Both the position numbers and the translations under genes were made by a program. A DNA stretch of 64,000 nucleotides, taken from the NCBI GenBank assembly GCA_044869275.1, contig JBIOXB010000139.1:71890-135889 (forward strand), written 5' to 3'. The DNA comes from a bacterium (GTDB lineage Bacteria > Zhuqueibacterota > Zhuqueibacteria > Zhuqueibacterales > Zhuqueibacteraceae). Positions 9,088 to 19,699 of the stretch are shown one piece after another (position 1 is the stretch's first letter; each line of letters starts with the position of its first letter). Under the pieces are notes generated by a model. It was not told the DNA's origin. It ran no database searches and saw only the letters and a program-made list of their open reading frames with translations.

Positions 9088-9940
9088 TCATTGATTTAAT
9101 ACCATCACCGCTTTCGTTTGGGTTTGGCCGTGGGCTTGCACGCAAACGACATACATGCCACTAGATCTGCCTCCGGTGCGATCAAAGCCATCCCACTCTA
9201 GGGCATTCCGGCCTTGGGGCATCTTCTGATTCTCACACAAAGTCTTAACCAGACGCCCCGCGGGGTTGTAAACTTTCACCGCCACCGCCGCGGGCTGGCC
9301 TAGCTCGAAGGAGATCGTCACCGTTCGTGCCAAACAGCATATTGCCTTCATCATCCTGCACGATGCACTTCACGCGGTAAGGAGTGAGATACTTGCTTGG
9401 GAGCGGCCCGCAGGTGGTATCCGGCACCCAGGAAGAATTCATCCATTTGAAGTAACCGGCGGGCGTAAACTTGAACCACTGGCCGGAAGAGTCCCTCCTG
9501 CCGATGTCGGCGCTGGACATGGCGCCACACCAGAGATTGCCTTGCACATCGAGATAAAGCGAAAGCATGCGATTTTCCGCGAGTCCAGCGCCTCGCTTGA
9601 AATGCTGCCAGGTTCGGTCTTTGATATGGAAGCGAAATAGGCCGTCAATGGTGCCCACCCAAAGCACATCAGATTTGTAATCCAGCGCCAGCGCGGTCAC
9701 TTCTGCAACGACCGCGCCCTGCGAGGTCATGGGCACGAAGCTTTCGAATGTGCTGCCGTCAAAACGATACACACCGTTGAAGCCAGTTCCAAACCAAATG
9801 GTTTTGGCTCTGTCACTATAAACTATAGGATTGACGTTATTGAAAGGCAGAAAGTGCGTCCATCGTTGTGCGGCCGCCGGCCCGCAGGCACCAAGCGCTA
9901 TCAGAGCGGTAATCGAAGATAGTACTTTGATGCTCTTCAT
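9088..9940 (-). pseudogene. Collapsed secreted protein: signal peptide plus Reg_prop-type beta-propeller blades joined out of frame to a FlgD-Ig C-terminal tail
   Basis: ORF 9245-9940 has a signal peptide and WFGT/LWVGT/LWCG/LFGT blades. From about 9325 another frame reads TVTISFEL...VKVYNPAGRLVKTL...WDGFD...SGMYVV to the stop at 9088. Confidence 0.7.
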
Positions 9941-10481: not shown

Positions 10482-12326
10482 TCAATGCCGAGTATTTTGA
10501 TACTTTTTGTAGATGTGCATGATCCCCGGCACATAGGCGGCGGTTTCCGCTGGCATCCCCTCCGCGCCACCGCCGTGAAGCTGCCATCTCCCCGCCCAAC
10601 GTTCACCGGCGTTGTACCCAGCCAGGCCGGCCTCCATGCCATACATGTCGATCAACATGGCGAGATAACGGCAGCCGAGCCGGAGGTTGTAGTTCGGATT
10701 GAAAAGAACTTCCTCCGCGCTGGTCCAGGGAATGCCTTCGGCCTCGGCCAAGTAAATGCCGGTGGCCGGCATGATTTGCATCAATCCCATTGCGCCAGCC
10801 CACGAAACCGCGTTCGGATTCCAGGAGGCCTCAAAGGTAATCGTGGCACAGATCAGCTCGATATTCAATTGGGGATATTTGCGCGTCATGCGCTCGATCT
10901 CGTCGGCCAGAGACAGCCTCAGCGCCGATTCCAACTTCGGGGCCAGGCGGTCGATCATCCTCCTCGCCCTTTCCAGATCGAGCTGGCGCAGACTATCCGA
11001 TTGTTGGATGGCCTGCAGCTTCTGGGCATGATCTTGCAGGCCATCGAGCTGTACCCGTTGGTGCTGCTGCGAGCGCTGCAGATGCTTGTGCAGTTCGATC
11101 GCAGCGGGCCCCCAAACCACCGCCAGAGTGAAGGCGGCGACTTCGATTGCCGCAACGCGAAGCCGGCGGCGCTTGGGTGTCTCTAGCTCTGCGACAAAAG
11201 GCGGCGCGGCGCTGTCGTATGCTTCCTCGTCGAGGTCTGCCACTGCCGGGTAGTCAAGGGCTTTGCGAGCGAGAGCTTCTTCCTCTGTCGCAGCCGGCAT
11301 GGTCACGGCAACTGCAGGAGAGGAAAGCGGCCATGCGGCCTCCTCTTCCGGCGCGCTGACAATATCGACCTCCAAAGCTTTCAACACCTCTGGCATGGAG
11401 AAGGCCAGGGCAAAACGAGGCGCGGTGCTGCTGGCGAAATGCAGTGCCACCGCACGCCGCGTTGAACTCTCCAGCCACCATGCACCGGAGTCTCCCGCAC
11501 CGCTGAGCGGCTGTTCTGGTGCTTCCGGCGCAATGTGGACCAGCGGACCCACCACGTGGTTGGTGCTGCCATACAAATGCATGGCATAACCCAACACCCC
11601 GGTGATGACACCGCGAGTGACACCGGTTCCTGCGCCGGATTTTATCACGCGCATTCCCAATTGCGGAATGGTCACGCCGGTCACAGGGCCGATTCCAATT
11701 TGCTCATGGCGCAGTGGCTTGAGACTGCGAAGCTGCGCCACGGCCGCGTCCAGGCCACAGTGGATGGCGCTGCGCTGGTATTCGGCGATGGTTTCCGCTT
11801 CGCCGTCCGCCGCCCTCGCGATGAGCGAGCCCAGCTGCATCTCTTGCTCCCCCGGCTCCGCCCCCGATAACACGTGCCAACTGCTGAGCAGCATCTCCGC
11901 GCCGCTTTGCCGGTCGCGCACTTTACCGCCCAAAGTTCCCCGGCGATGATCATGTGGATTCGAGAGGGCGAGCCCTCCTGCCAGAAACGGGCGCGAATCG
12001 CAAAGCTCCTCTGCACGCGTTGAAGTGGCCTGCCACCAATCCAAGCGGTAAATGGCCTCGGGGACGTCAACGGCAAAGCCCAAACGCTGAGCCTCGATCA
12101 CGCGGTGCGATTCGGCAACCGCCCATGCTTGAAAGGCCGCGTCCAGCAGTTTGCGGCGAAGGTGAATGCGCACCGCCAGCTCCGGCTCGAGCCTATGCTG
12201 GTCGGCGGAACGCGTGCGCAAACCGAGATCGATGAGCGCGACGTTCGGATCGTCGAGATACAGGACCAAGGCCTTTTCGAGCGCGCGGCGTGCAGCGCTC
12301 CAGGTTTTCGGATCAATGTTCATCAT
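10482..12326 (-). CDS. Trypsin-like (S1/Nal1-type) serine protease - acidic linker - TM - coiled coil - SLT lytic transglycosylase fusion
   Basis: Protease: GTLGG, LSSWHVL, LDAAVA, KSGAGTGVTRG, GDSGA, LHFA. SLT: ITFEASW (catalytic Glu position), AMGLMQIMPAT, NLRLGCRYL, AGYNAG, ETAAYV. Confidence 0.88.
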   Translation of the reverse strand: MMNIDPKTWSAARRALEKALVLYLDDPNVALIDLGLRTRSADQHRLEPELAVRIHLRRKLLDAAFQAWAVAESHRVIEAQRLGFAVDVPEAIYRLDWWQATSTRAEELCDSRPFLAGGLALSNPHDHRRGTLGGKVRDRQSGAEMLLSSWHVLSGAEPGEQEMQLGSLIARAADGEAETIAEYQRSAIHCGLDAAVAQLRSLKPLRHEQIGIGPVTGVTIPQLGMRVIKSGAGTGVTRGVITGVLGYAMHLYGSTNHVVGPLVHIAPEAPEQPLSGAGDSGAWWLESSTRRAVALHFASSTAPRFALAFSMPEVLKALEVDIVSAPEEEAAWPLSSPAVAVTMPAATEEEALARKALDYPAVADLDEEAYDSAAPPFVAELETPKRRRLRVAAIEVAAFTLAVVWGPAAIELHKHLQRSQQHQRVQLDGLQDHAQKLQAIQQSDSLRQLDLERARRMIDRLAPKLESALRLSLADEIERMTRKYPQLNIELICATITFEASWNPNAVSWAGAMGLMQIMPATGIYLAEAEGIPWTSAEEVLFNPNYNLRLGCRYLAMLIDMYGMEAGLAGYNAGERWAGRWQLHGGGAEGMPAETAAYVPGIMHIYKKYQNTRH

Positions 12327-12341
12327 ATGCTTCTTTGATGC

Positions 12342-13076
12342 TCAAGGGGCGACTCTTAAAAACGGTCCTCGATAAAAAGCCATCGGAGAATCGGGGCGAA
12401 GCGCAAAGGCGACGAGCTGCAATAGATAATGCCCGATGCCGGGGACTTTGAATTCAACCCGCAGGTCATATTCAGTTTGACCGGGATACATTATTTCTGT
12501 TTGCGAGCCCAGCAGCTTGCACTCGCCGGTGTTGGTGTCGGCAGCATGAATTTGAACGCAGAGAGAAATATGCGGCGGAACCGAGCTCGGGATCAACTTG
12601 CCAGCCACGCCGCAGCGAATTTCGCCGCGCAAGTATTTTATCGTTGTGGCGTTCGACCTGGCCGGCATTTCCACCGGTGCGAATCTGACCTCGTCGATGG
12701 ACAATGCCGGTTCGGGTGGGCGAATTTCCAGCATTGCTTCGCCTGCCTTCTTCTCCGCGACATTCTCTTCTTTTTCTTCACACGACACAGCGGCAATTGC
12801 CTTTTCATTGGCAAACAATTGCGCCCAATCCAACCATTCCTGACTGGCAATGCTTGTGGCCGCGATCGCAGTGCCGGCGCGTTCTTGCAGCTCGCGCGAC
12901 AGGGTTTCCGGCGTATGCCCCAAAAAGTCGGAGAACTTTCGTATGCCCACACTGTTGAGCGCCATCTCCATGGCCGGATCGATGCCGGGGATATTCAACA
13001 AGTCATCACGACCTAAAAGCAGCAGGGCTGAAGACGGCAAGACCGTCGGTTGGTAATTGTGCTCGGCTTGTTTCAT
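12342..13076 (-). CDS. Helix-hairpin-helix (DUF4332-like) protein with C-terminal beta-sandwich-like domain
   Basis: DDLLNIPGIDPAMEMALNSVGI...EWLDWA HhH-type motif; start chosen at the ATG after a GGAG RBS. Confidence 0.72.
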   Translation of the reverse strand: MKQAEHNYQPTVLPSSALLLLGRDDLLNIPGIDPAMEMALNSVGIRKFSDFLGHTPETLSRELQERAGTAIAATSIASQEWLDWAQLFANEKAIAAVSCEEKEENVAEKKAGEAMLEIRPPEPALSIDEVRFAPVEMPARSNATTIKYLRGEIRCGVAGKLIPSSVPPHISLCVQIHAADTNTGECKLLGSQTEIMYPGQTEYDLRVEFKVPGIGHYLLQLVAFALRPDSPMAFYRGPFLRVAP

Positions 13077-13279: not shown

Positions 13280-13516
13280 ATGTCTAATGTCATCAATGTC
13301 AATTTCAATCCCACACCTGACTTTGAACATCATGAAACCCAAGGCTCACGCAACGGCGACTGGATCGTTTTTCGTTGCGCGCAATGCCAGGATTACGAAC
13401 GCCGGCTGAATTGGCGCACCGGAGAAACCACGGTGCGGAATAGCAGTGCCAACATCGATCATCATGGCAAGTATTACCCGCGGGACATCATAGCCGCCTT
13501 CGAGAATGTCAATTAA
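13280..13516 (+). CDS. Small hypothetical CxxC/His protein (possible Zn ribbon)
   Basis: AGGAG RBS, 78 aa, HH...FRCAQC...HH; stop overlaps the convergent gene. Confidence 0.65.
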   Translation: MSNVINVNFNPTPDFEHHETQGSRNGDWIVFRCAQCQDYERRLNWRTGETTVRNSSANIDHHGKYYPRDIIAAFENVN

Positions 13517-14550
13517 TTAGCGAACATCAGGCCGCCATCGAGTGAAGCCGTGCAGGTCGAATGCTCTCCCTTCGTCATGGCGAGAGTCACCGTAGCATGG
13601 AGGCGATAGGCACCGGCCAGCAACGGCTTGGCGATCAAATTCAGAGTAACAATTCCTGTCGGAGTAATATGATCGTGTGCTTCAACGAGGATTTCACCCA
13701 AGTTGCTACTTAAACTTTTCGCGTAAACGATGGCTTCATAAGCCATCGGCGCCGTGCCGAACTTGTTCACCGCTTCAAGATCAAGGGTGAGACGTAAACC
13801 AAATGACCGGCCAGCTCTTACCTGGCGAGGGCCAGTAGCGTCGGCTTTCGAGATTTCCAGTTTCCGCAGATGCGGCACGTGACCGTTATTCGGGGGGGCA
13901 ACCGGTGAAGCCGCTGGCCCAACCGGCGCAGCTTGACGTTCCTTCCGCTGTAGCTTTTGCTGCAGAGCGTGAGCGGCGGGCGATTCCAGTAAAGCCGGGG
14001 GAAGTGAGCCACCGATCGATTTTTTGTCCAACGCGGATGCGGGCAAATCTATCTTTGCCTCGTATGCCGCAGCAAGGGCTTTGGGTTTTTCCAAAATGGC
14101 CAATCTTTTTTCCAATTCTTGCATTCGGCCTTCGCCATAGAGTCGTTGCCGCTCAATCTCGCTGCGATCCCCTTTTAGCGCCTCGGCCTGTTGCACGGCA
14201 TTCTCTGCCGTTGCCTTCGCCTGTTCCTGAAGGCTGACAATCTCCTCCTGCATTTTCACAATCGCGCTCTTCAGCGCCTGCCCTTCTTGTTTGATGTTCT
14301 TCAGGTCCTCGAGCACCTCGTTTCGATCAGCAGGCGCTAACGCAGACTCAGCCCCGCCCCATTTCACCGAGATTTCTTCATCTGTGATAGTCACCAGCTT
14401 TGATTCCTCTGCCGGCGCAATGACAGGCGCGTCTATTGGTTTTTCCTGCTGGCCTTGGTTGTTTCTTTTGTGTTTTCTTTTTTTATGCTGCGCCAGCGCT
14501 CGCGACTGGCTTCTGTTTTCAGCTTGCTCTTCTTTTCTTAATGCGTTCAT
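13513..14550 (-). CDS. Hypothetical coiled-coil protein with C-terminal beta-sandwich-like domain
   Basis: GAGGTG RBS before MNALRK; basic patch, heptad region, Pro/Ala linker, then a beta-rich domain ending LAGAYRLHATVTL...GGLMF. Confidence 0.7.
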   Translation of the reverse strand: MNALRKEEQAENRSQSRALAQHKKRKHKRNNQGQQEKPIDAPVIAPAEESKLVTITDEEISVKWGGAESALAPADRNEVLEDLKNIKQEGQALKSAIVKMQEEIVSLQEQAKATAENAVQQAEALKGDRSEIERQRLYGEGRMQELEKRLAILEKPKALAAAYEAKIDLPASALDKKSIGGSLPPALLESPAAHALQQKLQRKERQAAPVGPAASPVAPPNNGHVPHLRKLEISKADATGPRQVRAGRSFGLRLTLDLEAVNKFGTAPMAYEAIVYAKSLSSNLGEILVEAHDHITPTGIVTLNLIAKPLLAGAYRLHATVTLAMTKGEHSTCTASLDGGLMFAN

Positions 14551-14687
14551 AACGCACCTCATGAGATAGCGATGATAACGGGAAATTGAGTGTCGTAACC
14601 CAATTTGTGCCGATGAAAACACTGGCCCCTCGCTGCTAGAAGTTGCGGCGAGGGGCCAAGTTGTTACTTGCAGCGAACTGCCAAGCA

Positions 14688-15131
14688 TTACGGCACCGAT
14701 ACGTAGAACTGCAGGATCCCACCTTCGCAGTAGCCGGCGATAGGACCAGGCGTTCCGACGAGGTTCAGATAAGTGATGGTCGTCACCAGCTTATAGGCGC
14801 CTGCCTCAATGGTGAAAGGCGGCGTGACAATCTCGGTCAGAAACGGCAGATAGAGGTTCGGTGCGACGCTGGGCGCTAAAGGCACCAGCACATCAGCCGC
14901 GGGGAGATCGTAATCGGGGTTATTTCCCAGACTTTCGAGACGGACACGCACGCGCCATGTGCCACCGATCATGGCATTCAAAGTGCCTTCGGTTTGTAGC
15001 TTGACGCGAACACGCCAAGTCTCGCTGGTCTTGATGAGAGAGGTAGGATCGAAGATACCAGCTTCGAACACCTCACAGGTACCGCTGACGTTGAAATCGG
15101 TACCGCGGTCCTCAAAGATGAATTCAGACAT
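14688..15131 (-). CDS. Hypothetical all-beta protein (stand-alone version of the shared domain)
   Basis: GGAG RBS; alternating hydrophobic strands; ends AGAYKLVTTITY...PGPIAGYCEGGILQFY. Confidence 0.75.
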   Translation of the reverse strand: MSEFIFEDRGTDFNVSGTCEVFEAGIFDPTSLIKTSETWRVRVKLQTEGTLNAMIGGTWRVRVRLESLGNNPDYDLPAADVLVPLAPSVAPNLYLPFLTEIVTPPFTIEAGAYKLVTTITYLNLVGTPGPIAGYCEGGILQFYVSVP

Positions 15132-15715: not shown

Positions 15716-16126
15716 AATTCTTTTCCTTGGCCAGCGAAGCGATACTTGCGGGCACACGATCTCTGCAAGCGCCTGTTTTTAAAAAGAATTTCCACAACTA
15801 TGATTGTCGATCATTTTGGGAACAGTTTTTGTCAGTTGGTGGAGAGGAAATGGAGAAGAAGCAGAGAGCACTCAAAGTTAAAAGCCAAGTGAGGTCGAAT
15901 GATCATCGAACATGAGCAATAGGTTGCACGGCAAGGGAGGCATAATTGCTTTTGAGAGAATTCGTTGCCTTTGGTGTCCATATTCATAGCAGTTCATTAC
16001 TGCGAAAAGTGTTATTGCCTCGACCATCACCTTGCCTGGCCTTCTCTCCATGGCAATAGCCTGTCACCGGGTTGCTGCTTGACAAACCCTGCCCAATTGC
16101 CCGCAGGTAAAATGGAGGTAGCGTTC

Positions 16127-16441
16127 ATGGAACTTTTTCTTAATCTCAATTGCGCCGTGCTCATGTTCTTGTTGAATTCCAATTTGTTCGCCCAGGCCAG
16201 GAATCAGGTTTTTACCGGCGCAAGGCCGTTGGCGCTGGGAGAAGCTTTCGTGGCGGTCGCCGACGACGGCAATGCTATTTATTGGAATCCGGCGGGAAGG
16301 CAGCGCGTCGACGAGATATCTGACGCGGCGGTGAATGCGCAACTTGACCAAGCTTTGCGCCGCGGACCGAAACAGCCTCCCAAAAAACCAAATCGTCCCG
16401 TGCTCCGGCCGGGACGACCTAAAAAACCAATCGCGGAATAG
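16127..16441 (+). pseudogene. Remnant of PorV/PorQ-like outer membrane protein gene
   Basis: GGAGG RBS, signal peptide, GARPLALGEAFVAVADDGNAIYWNPAG signature, then an abrupt switch to an unrelated short tail; no barrel strands. Confidence 0.72.
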
Positions 16442-16711: not shown

Positions 16712-19699
16712 TTGGAGCCACCCATGCCAGCATCTGTGTTTGCCCATCATCGATTATGGGGGAGAATCACTCTCGGATTTCTTGCCGTGCTTTTGCCGCT
16801 CTGGCTTTTTGATACGGTCGGATTTCTAAAGGCTTTCGAATTGCAGTTTTTGGACAGGATGATGAAGTTGCGCGGCCATCGCGACCCGAGCCCCAATCTC
16901 ATCCTGGTCACGATCGACAATCAGGCCGCCAACGCGCTGGGGTCGCCGCTGCCGCGGCGGTACTACACACAATTGCTGCGCGCCTTGAGCCAATACGGCG
17001 CCAAAACCATCGTGCTTGATCTGCAGTTCAACACGCATCATGATGTGGAAGCGGATATCGAACTCGCAAAACTCATGCAATCGCTCGGTAACGTCATCCA
17101 ACCTTTTTTGTTTCAGTATCGTCTGGAAGATGACTTCGATCATAAAATCGAAAGGGCAACGCCGCAGAACAGCGCGTATGCACAATTCAGTATAAGGCCT
17201 AAGCAATACGCTGATCTTTCCTTTATCTTGGGTGACTCGGCGATGCTGCCGCATCGAATTTTTATTGAAACCGCGGCCAAGGCCGGCCTGGTTTTTATCT
17301 ATCCGGACGACGACGGCGGATACCGCCGGCTGCCCTTGTTGTGTAAAAACTTTGGAAAAGTCTATGCGGCCTTGAGCTTGTTAGCGATCTGCGATTATCA
17401 CAACATTTCGCCGGACAGCTTGCGCATTCAGCAGAATTTTTGGGGGTATCAACTCGCTCTCCCTTTCGCATCAACCGCGGTCAATATACCCATCAACCGG
17501 CAGGGGCAGACGCTGCTGAATTTTTACGGTCCATTTGAAGCTTTCAAATCCTATTCGATCCTTGACATTCTCGAATCGTTGCAGGAGCTCGAGCAGCGCA
17601 AAGCGCCGCGCGTGCCCTTGCGAGATTTTGCCGGCAAAATCGTTCTCCTCGGCACCAACGAGAGCCTGCGCAAGGATTTCTTCGTCACTCCTTTTGCCGA
17701 GGATTTTCCCGGCATGGGCATTCATGCCACCGCCATCAGCAATTTTCTCAACGGCGACAGCTTGCGGCAGTTGCCGCAGCGCCTCGAGGCCGGACTCGTT
17801 ATTATTCTCGCTCTCCTCCTGACCGGCGGCATGTTGCTCGCCAGCCGCCTCAACAAAGCGCGCGAGACAATTTATGCCGGGCTGATCTTTGGGGCAATTT
17901 TGCTGGCGTTCAATGCGTGTGCCTATGTGCTGCTGTTCGAAAGCTGGCATGTTGTGCCTCCCATGCTGAAAACCAATGGCGCGCTCGTACTGTTGTTTGT
18001 TGCCACGACGATTTATGAAAAAAACTGGGGCGTCAGGACGCTCAATCGCGAGGTCGGGCGCTTGGAAAGCGCCATGCAAGAGCGCTTGGCAGAAATGAAC
18101 ACGCTCAATGCCAAGATCAGCGCCCGTGATGAAGAATACAAAACGCTGGAGTTTTTAATCAAAGACTTCGAAAATCTTTTTTCTCATCCGCCGGCCGAGC
18201 TGACCAGTTTGTTGCAGAATCCGCTGGATCGCATGCGCCTTGTCAAAGAACAAATTAGATATGAATTGGATCACTTGCATGATGACAAACATCGCCTGGA
18301 GAATGAGAATAAAGATCTCGAATCACAAATAATAAGGCTCAGAGCAATCCAACCGGAACCTGCCCCCGGCGCGGCAGAAAAGAATAAGGAGGCCCCCACT
18401 CCTGGAGAAACGCCGCAGAAAAAATTGGAAGAAATGAATGGGGTGATGGAGCAATATAAAAAATTCAGGGATAAAGCCCAGGTTACGCACTATTTCGATC
18501 CGGCGTTCAACATGATCACCGCGGTGATGAATGGCCGGCCCGATGACGAGCCGAAAAAATCCAAAATGCAGGAAATCTTCTCGCTCATCGAGCGCATTAG
18601 CCCGTATGATTCCACAGTATTGATCACGGGCGCCATCGGCACCGGCAAAACGGAATTGGCCAAAGCCATCCACCATCGCAGCCGTCGCAAACAGGGGCCA
18701 TTCAAGTGCATCAACATTGCGTCGATTCCGGAGAATTTGATCGAGTCCGAGTTGTTTGGCCATACCAAAGGCGCGTTTACCGGCGCCCTGAACGATCGCA
18801 AAGGCGCGTTTGAATACCTCAACGGCGGCACCATCGTTCTCGATGAGATCGGCGACCTCAAACCGGAATCGCAAGTCAAATTGTTGCACGTGCTGCAGGA
18901 GAAAAAGTTCAGCCGTGTGGGTAGCAACGAGCAGATCGAAGTCGACGTGCGCATTATCACCGCCACCAACCAGGACTTGCAGGAGCTTATCCGGGAGAAA
19001 AAGTTCCGCGAAGATTTGTATTCCCGGTTGAATGTGATCCGCATTCAGGTGCCGCCATTGCGCGAGCGCCGCGAGGAAATTCCCCACTACGTCCATTATT
19101 TTTTGGCCAATTTCAACAAAAAATATGATCAACAAAAACGCGTAAGCGACGATGCCTTGATGGCCATGATTCTCCACGATTGGCAAAACAACATTCGTGA
19201 TCTGAAAAATGCGGTGGATAGAGCCTACGTCCACAGTGGGGACCATACCATCCGTCTGGGCGACTTGGATGAAGACATGCAAAAAAGTTATCGCGCCGTT
19301 TTTACCGAGCAATCCGCCAGCATGTGGGAAGGCTTGGTCAAAAGCGCTCGAGCAGAAATAGACAACCTGATGGACAAGTGCCGGGAGCTTCTGCATGCGG
19401 GGAATGTCGAGCAAGCTTTACAGTTGGGCCAGCTCAAAATGGGGGATTTGACTTACGAAAGCTGCTATGAATGCATCCAAGCTTATCTCGACAATGAAGG
19501 TTCATCCTTTCCGCACAACCAGAGAGAAAAGCTGGCCAAGCAAATCATCGTGGTTATGCAAAAGGAACTTTACGCCTGGTGCAAGGAGGAAAAACTCGGC
19601 AGCATGGAGGTTTTGTCCAAAGAAATCGAAAAACTGCTCGGCCGTGGCCGCCGGCAAGTGGACAATTGGGAACGCGAAGTCGGCGCGCCCGCGCGGTAA
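16712..19699 (+). CDS. CHASE2 sensor - 3 TM - coiled coil - sigma54 AAA+ activator
   Basis: CHASE2 motifs (ILVTID, PRRYY, IVLDL, DDDGGYRR, GKIVLLG, TPF..FPGMGIHA); AAA+ GAIGTGKT, ESELFGHTKGAFTGA, LDEIGD, FREDLYSRLN. Start may be the ATG at 16724. Confidence 0.9.
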   Translation: MEPPMPASVFAHHRLWGRITLGFLAVLLPLWLFDTVGFLKAFELQFLDRMMKLRGHRDPSPNLILVTIDNQAANALGSPLPRRYYTQLLRALSQYGAKTIVLDLQFNTHHDVEADIELAKLMQSLGNVIQPFLFQYRLEDDFDHKIERATPQNSAYAQFSIRPKQYADLSFILGDSAMLPHRIFIETAAKAGLVFIYPDDDGGYRRLPLLCKNFGKVYAALSLLAICDYHNISPDSLRIQQNFWGYQLALPFASTAVNIPINRQGQTLLNFYGPFEAFKSYSILDILESLQELEQRKAPRVPLRDFAGKIVLLGTNESLRKDFFVTPFAEDFPGMGIHATAISNFLNGDSLRQLPQRLEAGLVIILALLLTGGMLLASRLNKARETIYAGLIFGAILLAFNACAYVLLFESWHVVPPMLKTNGALVLLFVATTIYEKNWGVRTLNREVGRLESAMQERLAEMNTLNAKISARDEEYKTLEFLIKDFENLFSHPPAELTSLLQNPLDRMRLVKEQIRYELDHLHDDKHRLENENKDLESQIIRLRAIQPEPAPGAAEKNKEAPTPGETPQKKLEEMNGVMEQYKKFRDKAQVTHYFDPAFNMITAVMNGRPDDEPKKSKMQEIFSLIERISPYDSTVLITGAIGTGKTELAKAIHHRSRRKQGPFKCINIASIPENLIESELFGHTKGAFTGALNDRKGAFEYLNGGTIVLDEIGDLKPESQVKLLHVLQEKKFSRVGSNEQIEVDVRIITATNQDLQELIREKKFREDLYSRLNVIRIQVPPLRERREEIPHYVHYFLANFNKKYDQQKRVSDDALMAMILHDWQNNIRDLKNAVDRAYVHSGDHTIRLGDLDEDMQKSYRAVFTEQSASMWEGLVKSARAEIDNLMDKCRELLHAGNVEQALQLGQLKMGDLTYESCYECIQAYLDNEGSSFPHNQREKLAKQIIVVMQKELYAWCKEEKLGSMEVLSKEIEKLLGRGRRQVDNWEREVGAPAR

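What the first reader, a model, noticed from the sequence alone, without database searches (positions are those of the whole stretch)
10482..12326. Serine protease-TM-lytic transglycosylase fusion spanning the membrane
Seen: an intact H/D/S triad context (SWHV, LDAA, GDSG) in a domain with no signal peptide, then an acidic Pro/Ala linker, a KRRRLR patch, one hydrophobic helix, a Gln-rich coiled coil and a complete SLT domain. Positive-inside logic puts the protease in the cytoplasm and the SLT in the periplasm. I do not know this architecture from characterised proteins. Inference: self-cleavage or partner binding in the cytoplasm could gate a wall-degrading enzyme.
Basis: partly seen in the sequence, partly recalled or inferred. 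Interest (0 to 1): 0.78.

Follow-up and report, generated by a model that had tools for sequence, protein, structure and literature searches.

The report
Protease joined to wall-cutting enzyme
One real, conserved membrane protein of uncultured KSB1-type bacteria joins an inside-facing protease of the plant NAL1 type to an outside-facing cell-wall-cutting enzyme, and it is an add-on to an unstudied protease gene cluster found in many bacterial phyla.

Summary
Confirmed. The 614-aa ORF (10482-12326, minus strand) has a NAL1-like serine protease without a signal peptide (residues 5-332 align to rice NAL1 88-455, Z 28.2), a variable linker, one hydrophobic helix, a coiled coil and an SLT domain. 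It is not a chimera: 65 of 91 other homologues carry both halves, and a second sample bridges the junction. The fused proteases form one clade beside KSB1 stand-alone proteases.

The gene extends a widespread, uncharacterised operon (regulator, unknown gene, NAL1-like protease, small NAL1-N-domain protein, HhH-Ig protein). An SLT lies in only 6 of 80 such loci.

The SLT glutamate is invariant (67 of 67). The protease triad is lost in 13 of 71 fusions, while N-domain residues D33, G35, R53 and H55 stay in 69-70 of 71. The linker has no conserved cut site, so obligatory self-cleavage is unlikely.

Best reading (0.45): the cytoplasmic module docks the lytic transglycosylase onto the operon's protease assembly for regulated wall remodelling, and can supply the protease activity itself where no second copy exists. 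Function is untested; topology is inferred.

The parts
10482..12326 (-). Fusion gene, 614 aa: NAL1-like N-domain, serine protease, linker, membrane helix, coiled coil, SLT
   Evidence: conserved in 65 of 91 other hits
12027..12326 (-). N-domain (residues 1-100), homologous to the NAL1 ATP-binding domain; R37, R39, K59, D87, V88 align with NAL1 R120, R122, K139, D166, V167
   Evidence: profile alignment (weak, E 0.001), structural range, residue roles from PMC12012508 section 5
11352..11990 (-). Chymotrypsin-fold protease (residues 113-325); H151 at 11874-11876, D193 at 11748-11750, S280 at 11487-11489
11157..11351 (-). Acidic Pro/Ala linker (326-384), ending in the basic KRRRLR patch (385-390); length and sequence not conserved
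   Evidence: 15-213 aa in the 53 of 63 fusions that could be parsed
11097..11153 (-). Single hydrophobic helix (392-410), probable uncleaved signal-anchor
   Evidence: lies about 92-106 residues before the SLT Cys-Ala motif in most relatives, as in stand-alone TM-SLT proteins (95-100)
10944..11096 (-). Gln-rich coiled-coil stalk (411-461), continuous with the membrane helix in the model
10482..10943 (-). Lytic transglycosylase (SLT) domain (462-614); catalytic E499 at 10830-10832
   Evidence: Z 17.5, rmsd 2.0, 140 aligned to 6fpn
12342..13073 (-). Upstream operon gene: helix-hairpin-helix domain plus Ig-like beta-sandwich, no signal peptide; stop lies 15 bases before the fusion start
   Evidence: relatives in 58 of 80 protease loci
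13280..13516 (+). Small conserved His/Cys (zinc-ribbon-like) gene on the opposite strand inside the cluster
   Evidence: antisense to the cluster in all 8 loci where it was found among 21
13513..14688 (-). Coiled-coil protein with a C-terminal domain weakly related to the HhH-Ig protein (true start probably further in)
14688..15131 (-). 147-aa protein of unknown function at the head of the cluster; occupies the place that other unknown genes (F4, F16) take in other loci
16712..19699 (+). CHASE2-sigma-54 activator gene, a recurrent neighbour; regulation of the cluster not shown
   Evidence: 8 of 21 loci

Best explanation
A membrane-anchored family-1 lytic transglycosylase was recruited as the last gene of a NAL1-like protease operon by fusing a duplicate of the operon's protease to a KSB1 TM-coiled coil-SLT protein. 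Shown: the architecture, its conservation, a single origin of the fused protease and the operon context. Inferred: the protease module stays in the cytoplasm and the SLT sits in the periplasm on a helical stalk. Inferred, less firmly: the cytoplasmic module works first as a docking or oligomerisation handle, through its NAL1-type N-domain, that ties the SLT to the operon's protease assembly and clusters or positions it. The wall is then cut where and when the operon's programme (differentiation, remodelling or controlled lysis) is switched on. Proteolysis is needed once per locus: the fusion supplies it when it is the only copy, as in this window, and can lose it when a stand-alone protease lies next door.
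For: (1) SLT core invariant: E499 67 of 67, G514 and Q517 67 of 67; dN/dS 0.12-0.16 in three gene pairs. (2) Triad kept in 58 of 71 fusions against 96 of 96 stand-alone proteases; K59 40 of 71 against 96 of 96; but D33, G35, R53, H55 kept in 69-70 of 71 fusions. (3) In-frame deletions with different breakpoints remove the His/Asp barrel and keep N-domain, helix and SLT (P0032, P0042, P0047, P0068, P0126, L044). (4) Among 18 genome loci the triad is lost in 3 of 7 with an adjacent stand-alone protease and 0 of 10 without; one lost case lies at a contig end (Fisher p 0.051, kin not independent, one of the 7 inferred from two contig ends). (5) The same N-domain occurs alone as an 80-residue gene in the operon (about 55 of 80 loci by my count). 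In NAL1 this domain makes the trimer contacts with the protease domain (PMC12012508). (6) In four matched loci the fused protease diverges faster (identity 0.53-0.66) than its stand-alone neighbour (0.76-0.85) yet stays under purifying selection (dN/dS 0.13-0.36). (7) Distant members of the protease family are fused to other wall hydrolases (P0200, P0202, P0207, P0215), on branches far from the KSB1 clade.
Against: No binding, oligomer or activity was shown. Most fusions (58 of 71) keep the triad, so catalysis may matter more than this reading gives it. The stand-alone set was limited to near-full-length proteins, and 71 of its 96 rows were found with patterns that include the His and Ser motifs, so its perfect score is partly built in (D193 and K59 lie outside those patterns). 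These loci are prone to deletion generally (truncated neighbours), so barrel loss may be plain decay. NAL1 trimers without the N-terminal strand are inactive, and this protein lacks that strand. The helix is less hydrophobic in fusions (mean 2.03) than in stand-alone TM-SLT proteins (2.48). 74 of 80 operon loci show no SLT within the flanks held, so the operon's core job does not need it. The window protein has Ala after the catalytic Glu, which could lower its activity.
Confidence: 0.45

Rival explanations
1. Proteolytic gating: the protease cuts its own linker, or a neighbour's, freeing a short basic tail, a weak helix and the SLT, which then becomes active or leaves the membrane and opens the wall, working like a signal-arrest-release endolysin or like pro-SleC activation by Csp proteases.
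For: Triad intact here and in 58 of 71 fusions; disordered linker; helix weaker than in stand-alone TM-SLT proteins; other family members are fused to signal-less amidase, GH19 and M74 domains. A stand-alone protease could cut triad-less fusions in trans.
Against: No shared linker motif: the commonest 3-mer occurs in 15 of 53 linkers, and shuffles reach 15. Linker length runs from 15 to 213 residues. A cut on the cytoplasmic side leaves the SLT anchored, like the stand-alone TM-SLT proteins. No phage context (1 distant hit in the viral scan).
Confidence: 0.22
2. Two independent enzymes on one anchor: the helix tethers an active protease to the inner face of the membrane, where it processes cytoplasmic operon products (the 147-aa protein, F4, HhH-Ig), while the SLT works outside without any signal crossing the membrane.
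For: In 10 of 18 loci the fusion is the only protease copy and all 10 keep the triad. One locus has F4, HhH-Ig and the fusion with no stand-alone protease (L036). A long flexible linker transmits conformation poorly (inference).
Against: Does not explain why N-domain residues outlast the triad or why triad-less fusions keep the N-domain in frame.
Confidence: 0.2
3. Passenger decay: a tandem duplicate of the protease fused by accident to a TM-SLT paralogue; only the SLT is selected and the N-terminal half is slowly eroding.
For: Faster divergence and repeated barrel loss in the fused protease; P0069 has the operon's Ig-like domain in front of the same TM-SLT; many neighbouring genes are truncated.
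Against: dN/dS 0.13-0.36 in the protease domain; triad kept in 58 of 71 across a clade diverged to 34-55% identity and 5 of 15 families; N-domain motifs kept in 69-70 of 71.
Confidence: 0.12
4. Assembly chimera or a private deletion joining two genes.
For: Collapsed genes lie nearby (9088-9940, 15965-16441).
Against: 65 of 91 other hits carry both halves; 15 of 125 genomes of the class hold a fused frame; a 993-base contig from a second sample covers 10982-11974 without differences.
Confidence: 0.01

Closest known systems
Rice NARROW LEAF 1 (NAL1) serine protease (PDB 8pmi, 7y77; Pfam NAL1_N PF25608, Nal1_C PF25819; PMC12012508)
   Same: Residues 5-332 align with NAL1 88-455 (Z 28.2, rmsd 3.4, 305 aligned, 18% identity): ATP-binding domain plus protease domain, same triad order, no signal peptide; five ATP-site residues line up.
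   Different: Lacks NAL1's N-terminal region 1-88, which builds the active hexamer; is joined to a membrane helix and an SLT; this protein itself does not reach the Pfam NAL1 models (Nal1_C in 2 of 67 relatives at E 0.027).
Family-1 lytic transglycosylases (PF01464; Slt70, LtgA, MltC catalytic domains)
   Same: Fold (Z 16-17.5), catalytic Glu, GLMQ, YN and ET..Y motifs (motif names recalled).
   Different: Anchored by an internal helix and a 50-residue stalk behind a 390-residue cytoplasmic part; Ala instead of Ser/Thr after the Glu; below the NCBIfam cut-offs of all named LTs.
Stand-alone TM-coiled coil-SLT proteins of the same class (e.g. G000:C24:43716-44462)
   Same: 40-50% identity over stalk and SLT, same helix-to-SLT distance; a match in 122 of 125 genomes, nearly all to this half.
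   Different: Only a short basic tail precedes their helix; they are themselves uncharacterised; they form their own branch (98*) apart from the fused SLTs.
Protease-activated or programmed wall hydrolases: clostridial Csp/pro-SleC (seen only as a reference title in PMC2605481, otherwise recalled); Myxococcus LtgA/LtgB sporulation (PMC13739271, abstract); SAR endolysins (recalled)
   Same: A wall hydrolase used in a timed programme, in the first case under protease control.
   Different: Separate proteins, different protease family, no membrane-spanning protease-LT chain; analogy only.

Membership tests
Chymotrypsin-fold (clan PA) serine protease | Two beta-barrel fold | tested here: met
   Z 24.1, rmsd 2.2, 181 aligned to S. 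griseus protease B over 115-323
Chymotrypsin-fold (clan PA) serine protease | His, Asp, Ser in order with GDSG | tested here: met
   H151, D193, S280; family-invariant N149, P165 and G299 are changed in this protein
Chymotrypsin-fold (clan PA) serine protease | Proteolytic activity | not testable with these tools
   needs an assay
NAL1-like proteases | NAL1-type N-domain (ABD) directly before the protease | tested here: met
   model 5-332 aligns to NAL1 88-455; NAL1_N hits in relatives P0177, P0192, P0207
NAL1-like proteases | ATP-contact residues R120, R122, K123, K139, D166, V167 | tested here: inconclusive
   5 of 6 identical by a weak profile alignment; K59 and D87 are near-invariant in stand-alone proteases, the two Arg are not; binding untested
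Plant NAL1 hexameric cage | N-terminal strand 48-53 that stacks two trimers | tested here: not met
   the protein starts at the equivalent of NAL1 residue 88; not filed as a NAL1 cage
NAL1-like proteases | Trimer through ABD-protease contacts | not testable with these tools
   needs SEC-MALS, cross-linking or a structure
Family-1 lytic transglycosylase (PF01464) | Pfam score above cut-off and lysozyme-like fold | tested here: met
   66.4 bits against 21.3; Z 17.5
Family-1 lytic transglycosylase (PF01464) | Catalytic Glu, GxxQ, YN, ET..Y motifs | tested here: met
   E499, G514/Q517, Y571/N572, E594/T595/Y598
Family-1 lytic transglycosylase (PF01464) | Ser/Thr right after the Glu (typical, recalled) | tested here: inconclusive
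   Ala here with Ser one place on; 60 of 67 rows have Ser/Thr, 2 have Ala
Type II bitopic membrane protein (N-in, C-out) | One hydrophobic helix, no signal peptide, positive inside | tested here: inconclusive
   helix present and conserved; charge bias in 47 of 72 fusions; only hydropathy and charge counts, no topology predictor
SAR endolysin | Anchor at the very N-terminus and a phage lysis context | tested here: not met
   helix starts at 392; viral scan gave 1 distant locus
Known anti-phage systems (PADLOC 2.0) | Match to a system protein model | tested here: inconclusive
   9 of 10 proteins without a hit; one weak coiled-coil hit (PbeC, E 0.001)

The most novel reading that the evidence does not exclude
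The gene marks an undescribed system spread over many bacterial phyla and related to plant NAL1. A nucleotide-binding N-domain licenses a NAL1-type protease assembly that processes co-encoded beta-sandwich proteins during differentiation or programmed death. Several lineages have separately bolted wall hydrolases onto the protease, and in KSB1 the link crosses the membrane, so that a cytoplasmic protease assembly directly switches a periplasmic lytic transglycosylase.
Probability: 0.25. Interest if true: 0.85.

Novelty: new variant of a known kind. Interest (0 to 1): 0.62.

Why it matters
Lytic transglycosylases are usually controlled from the periplasm. A chain that places a protease or scaffold module inside the cell and the hydrolase outside would be a direct inside-out control route. 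The protein also gives a compact bacterial model of NAL1's ATP-binding domain plus protease, a yield-relevant plant enzyme, and points to a conserved operon in Chloroflexota, cyanobacteria, heliobacteria, actinomycetes, acidobacteria and others for which my searches found no description. Cultured members of those groups would make the operon testable even though KSB1 is not.

Tried and rejected
Complex prediction of three copies of residues 1-325 returned 'no answer'; no evidence either way. No RNA holder was listed among public runs. phmmer of residues 1-325 against the PDB found nothing; only the profile and the model reached NAL1. Pfam has no hit on the protease half of this protein. The HhH-Ig model gives only generic Ig-like matches (best Z 10.3). 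Sigma-70, terminator and sigma-54 scans gave nothing above chance in the window; of 16 upstream regions one reached a shuffle fraction of 0.04, which I count as chance. No conserved linker motif (10 of 63 fusions could not be parsed). The SLT tree did not place the fused clade firmly: the outgroup was not one side of a branch and long branches met. Literature searches for the fusion or for bacterial NAL1 relatives found no relevant paper; PMC2605481 has no occurrence of 'transglycosylase' or 'SLT' in its main text; PMC11683472 none of 'protease', 'peptidoglycan', 'spore' or 'filament'. Subscription papers and all supplements were not seen. Look-ups of earlier findings by sequence, by place and by NAL1 words were empty.

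Full report
Observation. The frame 10482-12326 on the minus strand encodes 614 residues. H151, D193 and S280 sit in SWHV, LDAA and GDSG contexts, KRRRLR is at 385-390, the most hydrophobic 19-residue window is 392-410 (1.77), and Pfam SLT covers 484-582 at E 2e-18. An AlphaFold2 model from a 67-row alignment (pLDDT 86.4, pTM 0.59) shows an alpha/beta N-domain, a two-barrel protease, a disordered linker, one helix from 384 to 461 and an SLT fold.

It is a real gene. A search of 8000 scored candidates of 337-1075 residues returned 92 proteins. Of the 91 other than the window's own, 65 carry both halves and 57 of these cover at least 270 of 328 protease positions. Where a source names a taxon it is candidate division KSB1, so I take the window to be KSB1 (Zhuqueibacterota; inference). 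Among 125 genomes of the class, 15 in 5 of 15 families hold a fused frame, by my reading of the listed matches and 20 fetched regions. Four more have the operon-type protease at contig edges. A contig from a second sample spans 10982-11974, protease to stalk, with no difference; the run that holds the whole stretch may be the source of the window and is not independent.

The N-terminal half is NAL1-like. phmmer found nothing in the PDB, but a profile of 34 close proteases ranked rice NAL1 first (E 0.001). The model matched NAL1 best by Foldseek (E 2e-15) and by VIA-align (Z 28.2, rmsd 3.4, 305 aligned; residues 5-332 on 88-455). By PMC12012508 (passages; section 5 whole) that range is the ATP-binding domain plus the protease domain. 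The ATP-binding domain makes the trimer contacts, and a strand further upstream, absent here, is needed for the active hexamer. Using the alignment, whose numbering I checked against the residues named in the paper, R37, R39, K59, D87 and V88 correspond to R120, R122, K139, D166 and V167. That alignment is weak, so nucleotide binding is a lead only. The family is large: 11,992 representatives at E 0.001, and the Atlas look-alikes carry NAL1 Pfam families in a minority of members.

The C-terminal half resembles a common protein of this class. 122 of 125 genomes match the query, nearly all through a stand-alone TM-coiled coil-SLT of about 240 residues; the window's genome has one on C24. In 12 such proteins the helix lies 95-100 residues before the SLT Cys-Ala motif, with net charge +4.0 before and +0.2 after. 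In 72 fusions the spacing is similar, the bias weaker (+2.8, +1.4; 47 as expected, 18 reversed) and the helix less hydrophobic (2.03 against 2.48). Cytoplasmic protease and periplasmic SLT is therefore likely, about 0.8 in my estimate, resting mostly on the missing signal peptide.

Origin. In a FastTree tree of 207 protease domains, all 64 fused ones fall in one set of 68 rows (support 99), next to KSB1 stand-alone proteases. The four other rows in that set are cut-off sequences; one still shows helix and stalk. Deleted forms were left out of this tree by a coverage filter, and no clade test was run. One fusion after tandem duplication is the simplest reading.

Context. A scan of GTDB genomes gave 140 confirmed loci, of which the best 80 were kept; titles include Chloroflexota, cyanobacteria, Heliobacteriaceae, actinomycetes, Blastocatellia, Deinococcales and Gammaproteobacteria. 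The order is strikingly constant: an unknown gene F4 (69 of 80), the protease, an 80-100-residue protein made of the N-domain alone (about 55 of 80, my count), and an HhH-Ig protein (58 of 80). A regulator cluster lies in 46 of 80 loci, and all 8 members tested carry BTAD. An SLT occurs in 6 of 80, titled KSB1, Zhuqueibacter, Calditrichaceae, Caldithrix or just 'bacterium'; my SLT profile was built from this family and flanks were at most 6 kb. In the window the cluster is the 147-aa gene, a coiled-coil gene, an antisense His/Cys gene, HhH-Ig and the fusion, near a CHASE2-sigma-54 activator (8 of 21 loci). A second copy on C53 has F4, an intact stand-alone protease, HhH-Ig and a fusion lacking the protease core. 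The family is practically absent from viral contigs and has no PADLOC match of note.

What selection says. The SLT Glu, Gly and Gln are invariant in 67 of 67 rows. The triad is complete in 58 of 71 fusions against 96 of 96 stand-alone proteases; seven losses are deletions and six substitutions. K59 holds in 40 of 71 against 96 of 96, while D33, G35, R53 and H55 hold in 69-70 of 71. The stand-alone set was length-filtered, partly motif-selected and may contain duplicates, which flatters it. dN/dS in three gene pairs is 0.13-0.36 for the protease and 0.12-0.16 for the SLT. Triad loss occurs in 3 of 7 loci with a neighbouring stand-alone protease and 0 of 10 without (p 0.051, kin not independent). 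The window's protein is of the sole-copy, intact type. Linkers share no motif.

Recurrence. Of 64 longer family members scanned, four carry other wall-hydrolase domains without a membrane helix or signal peptide: amidase, GH19, M74, with PG-binding or LysM domains. They lie far from the KSB1 clade, so this protease has been joined to wall hydrolases at least twice. Most of the other extensions have no Pfam match.

Mechanism. Shown: architecture, conservation, origin, operon and unequal constraint. Inferred: topology; a docking role for the N-domain; activity of both enzymes; a developmental or lytic purpose. I put docking with optional proteolysis at 0.45, gating by cleavage at 0.22, two independent tethered enzymes at 0.20, passenger decay at 0.12 and chimera at 0.01. 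The purpose is the weakest step; Myxococcus sporulation by lytic transglycosylases (PMC13739271, abstract only) is an analogy, not evidence.

Novelty. Both domains are known folds, so this is a new variant, not a new kind. My literature searches found no report of the fusion or of the operon; subscription papers and supplements were not covered.

Noticed in passing
L051-L130 (80 GTDB loci); e.g. L052:3622-8407: Conserved uncharacterised operon across many phyla: BTAD regulator, F4, NAL1-like protease, N-domain-only protein, HhH-Ig. F4 (210-290 aa) has no Pfam, PHROG or PDB match and a conserved E-x-A-E-P stretch before its folded part. Worth its own study.
   Followed up: partly
L050:8965-10146 (G000:C53:12964-14145): Second fusion copy in the same genome with about 200 residues of the protease core deleted in frame, next to an intact stand-alone protease.
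   Followed up: yes
window 13280-13516 (+): Small His/Cys gene always antisense within the cluster (8 loci); similar small CxxC genes flank the operon in Chloroflexota loci (clusters G6, G23), relationship not tested.
   Followed up: partly
L038:6011-8407: A relative of the 147-aa gene with a Tyr/Pro/Asp-rich N-terminal extension is followed by a tyrosinase gene, then HhH-Ig and the fusion; suggests a cross-linked coat. One locus only.
   Followed up: no
window 9088-9940 (-) and 15965-16441 (+): Collapsed genes: a propeller-repeat protein cut short and out of frame with a FlgD-like tail; a PorV-like start whose relatives run to about 840 aa (L034, L041).
   Followed up: partly
proteins P0200, P0202, P0207, P0215, P0206, P0188, P0201, P0069: Other fusions in the family: protease with amidase, GH19, M74, LysM, KAP NTPase or subtilase; protease with the operon's Ig-like domain; that Ig-like domain in front of TM-SLT.
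   Followed up: partly
L045:3-7444, L036:1047-9028, L032:46-7453: ECF-like gene, zf-HC2 anti-sigma with TPR, and TPR-CHAT (caspase-like) genes lie directly upstream of the operon in several KSB1-class loci.
   Followed up: no
L047:7912-9746: Two identical tandem copies of F4; recent duplication or assembly artefact.
   Followed up: no
G000:C4:46440-47096 and 98 of 125 genomes: More distant NAL1-like proteases are common across the class, beyond the operon-type clade.
   Followed up: no
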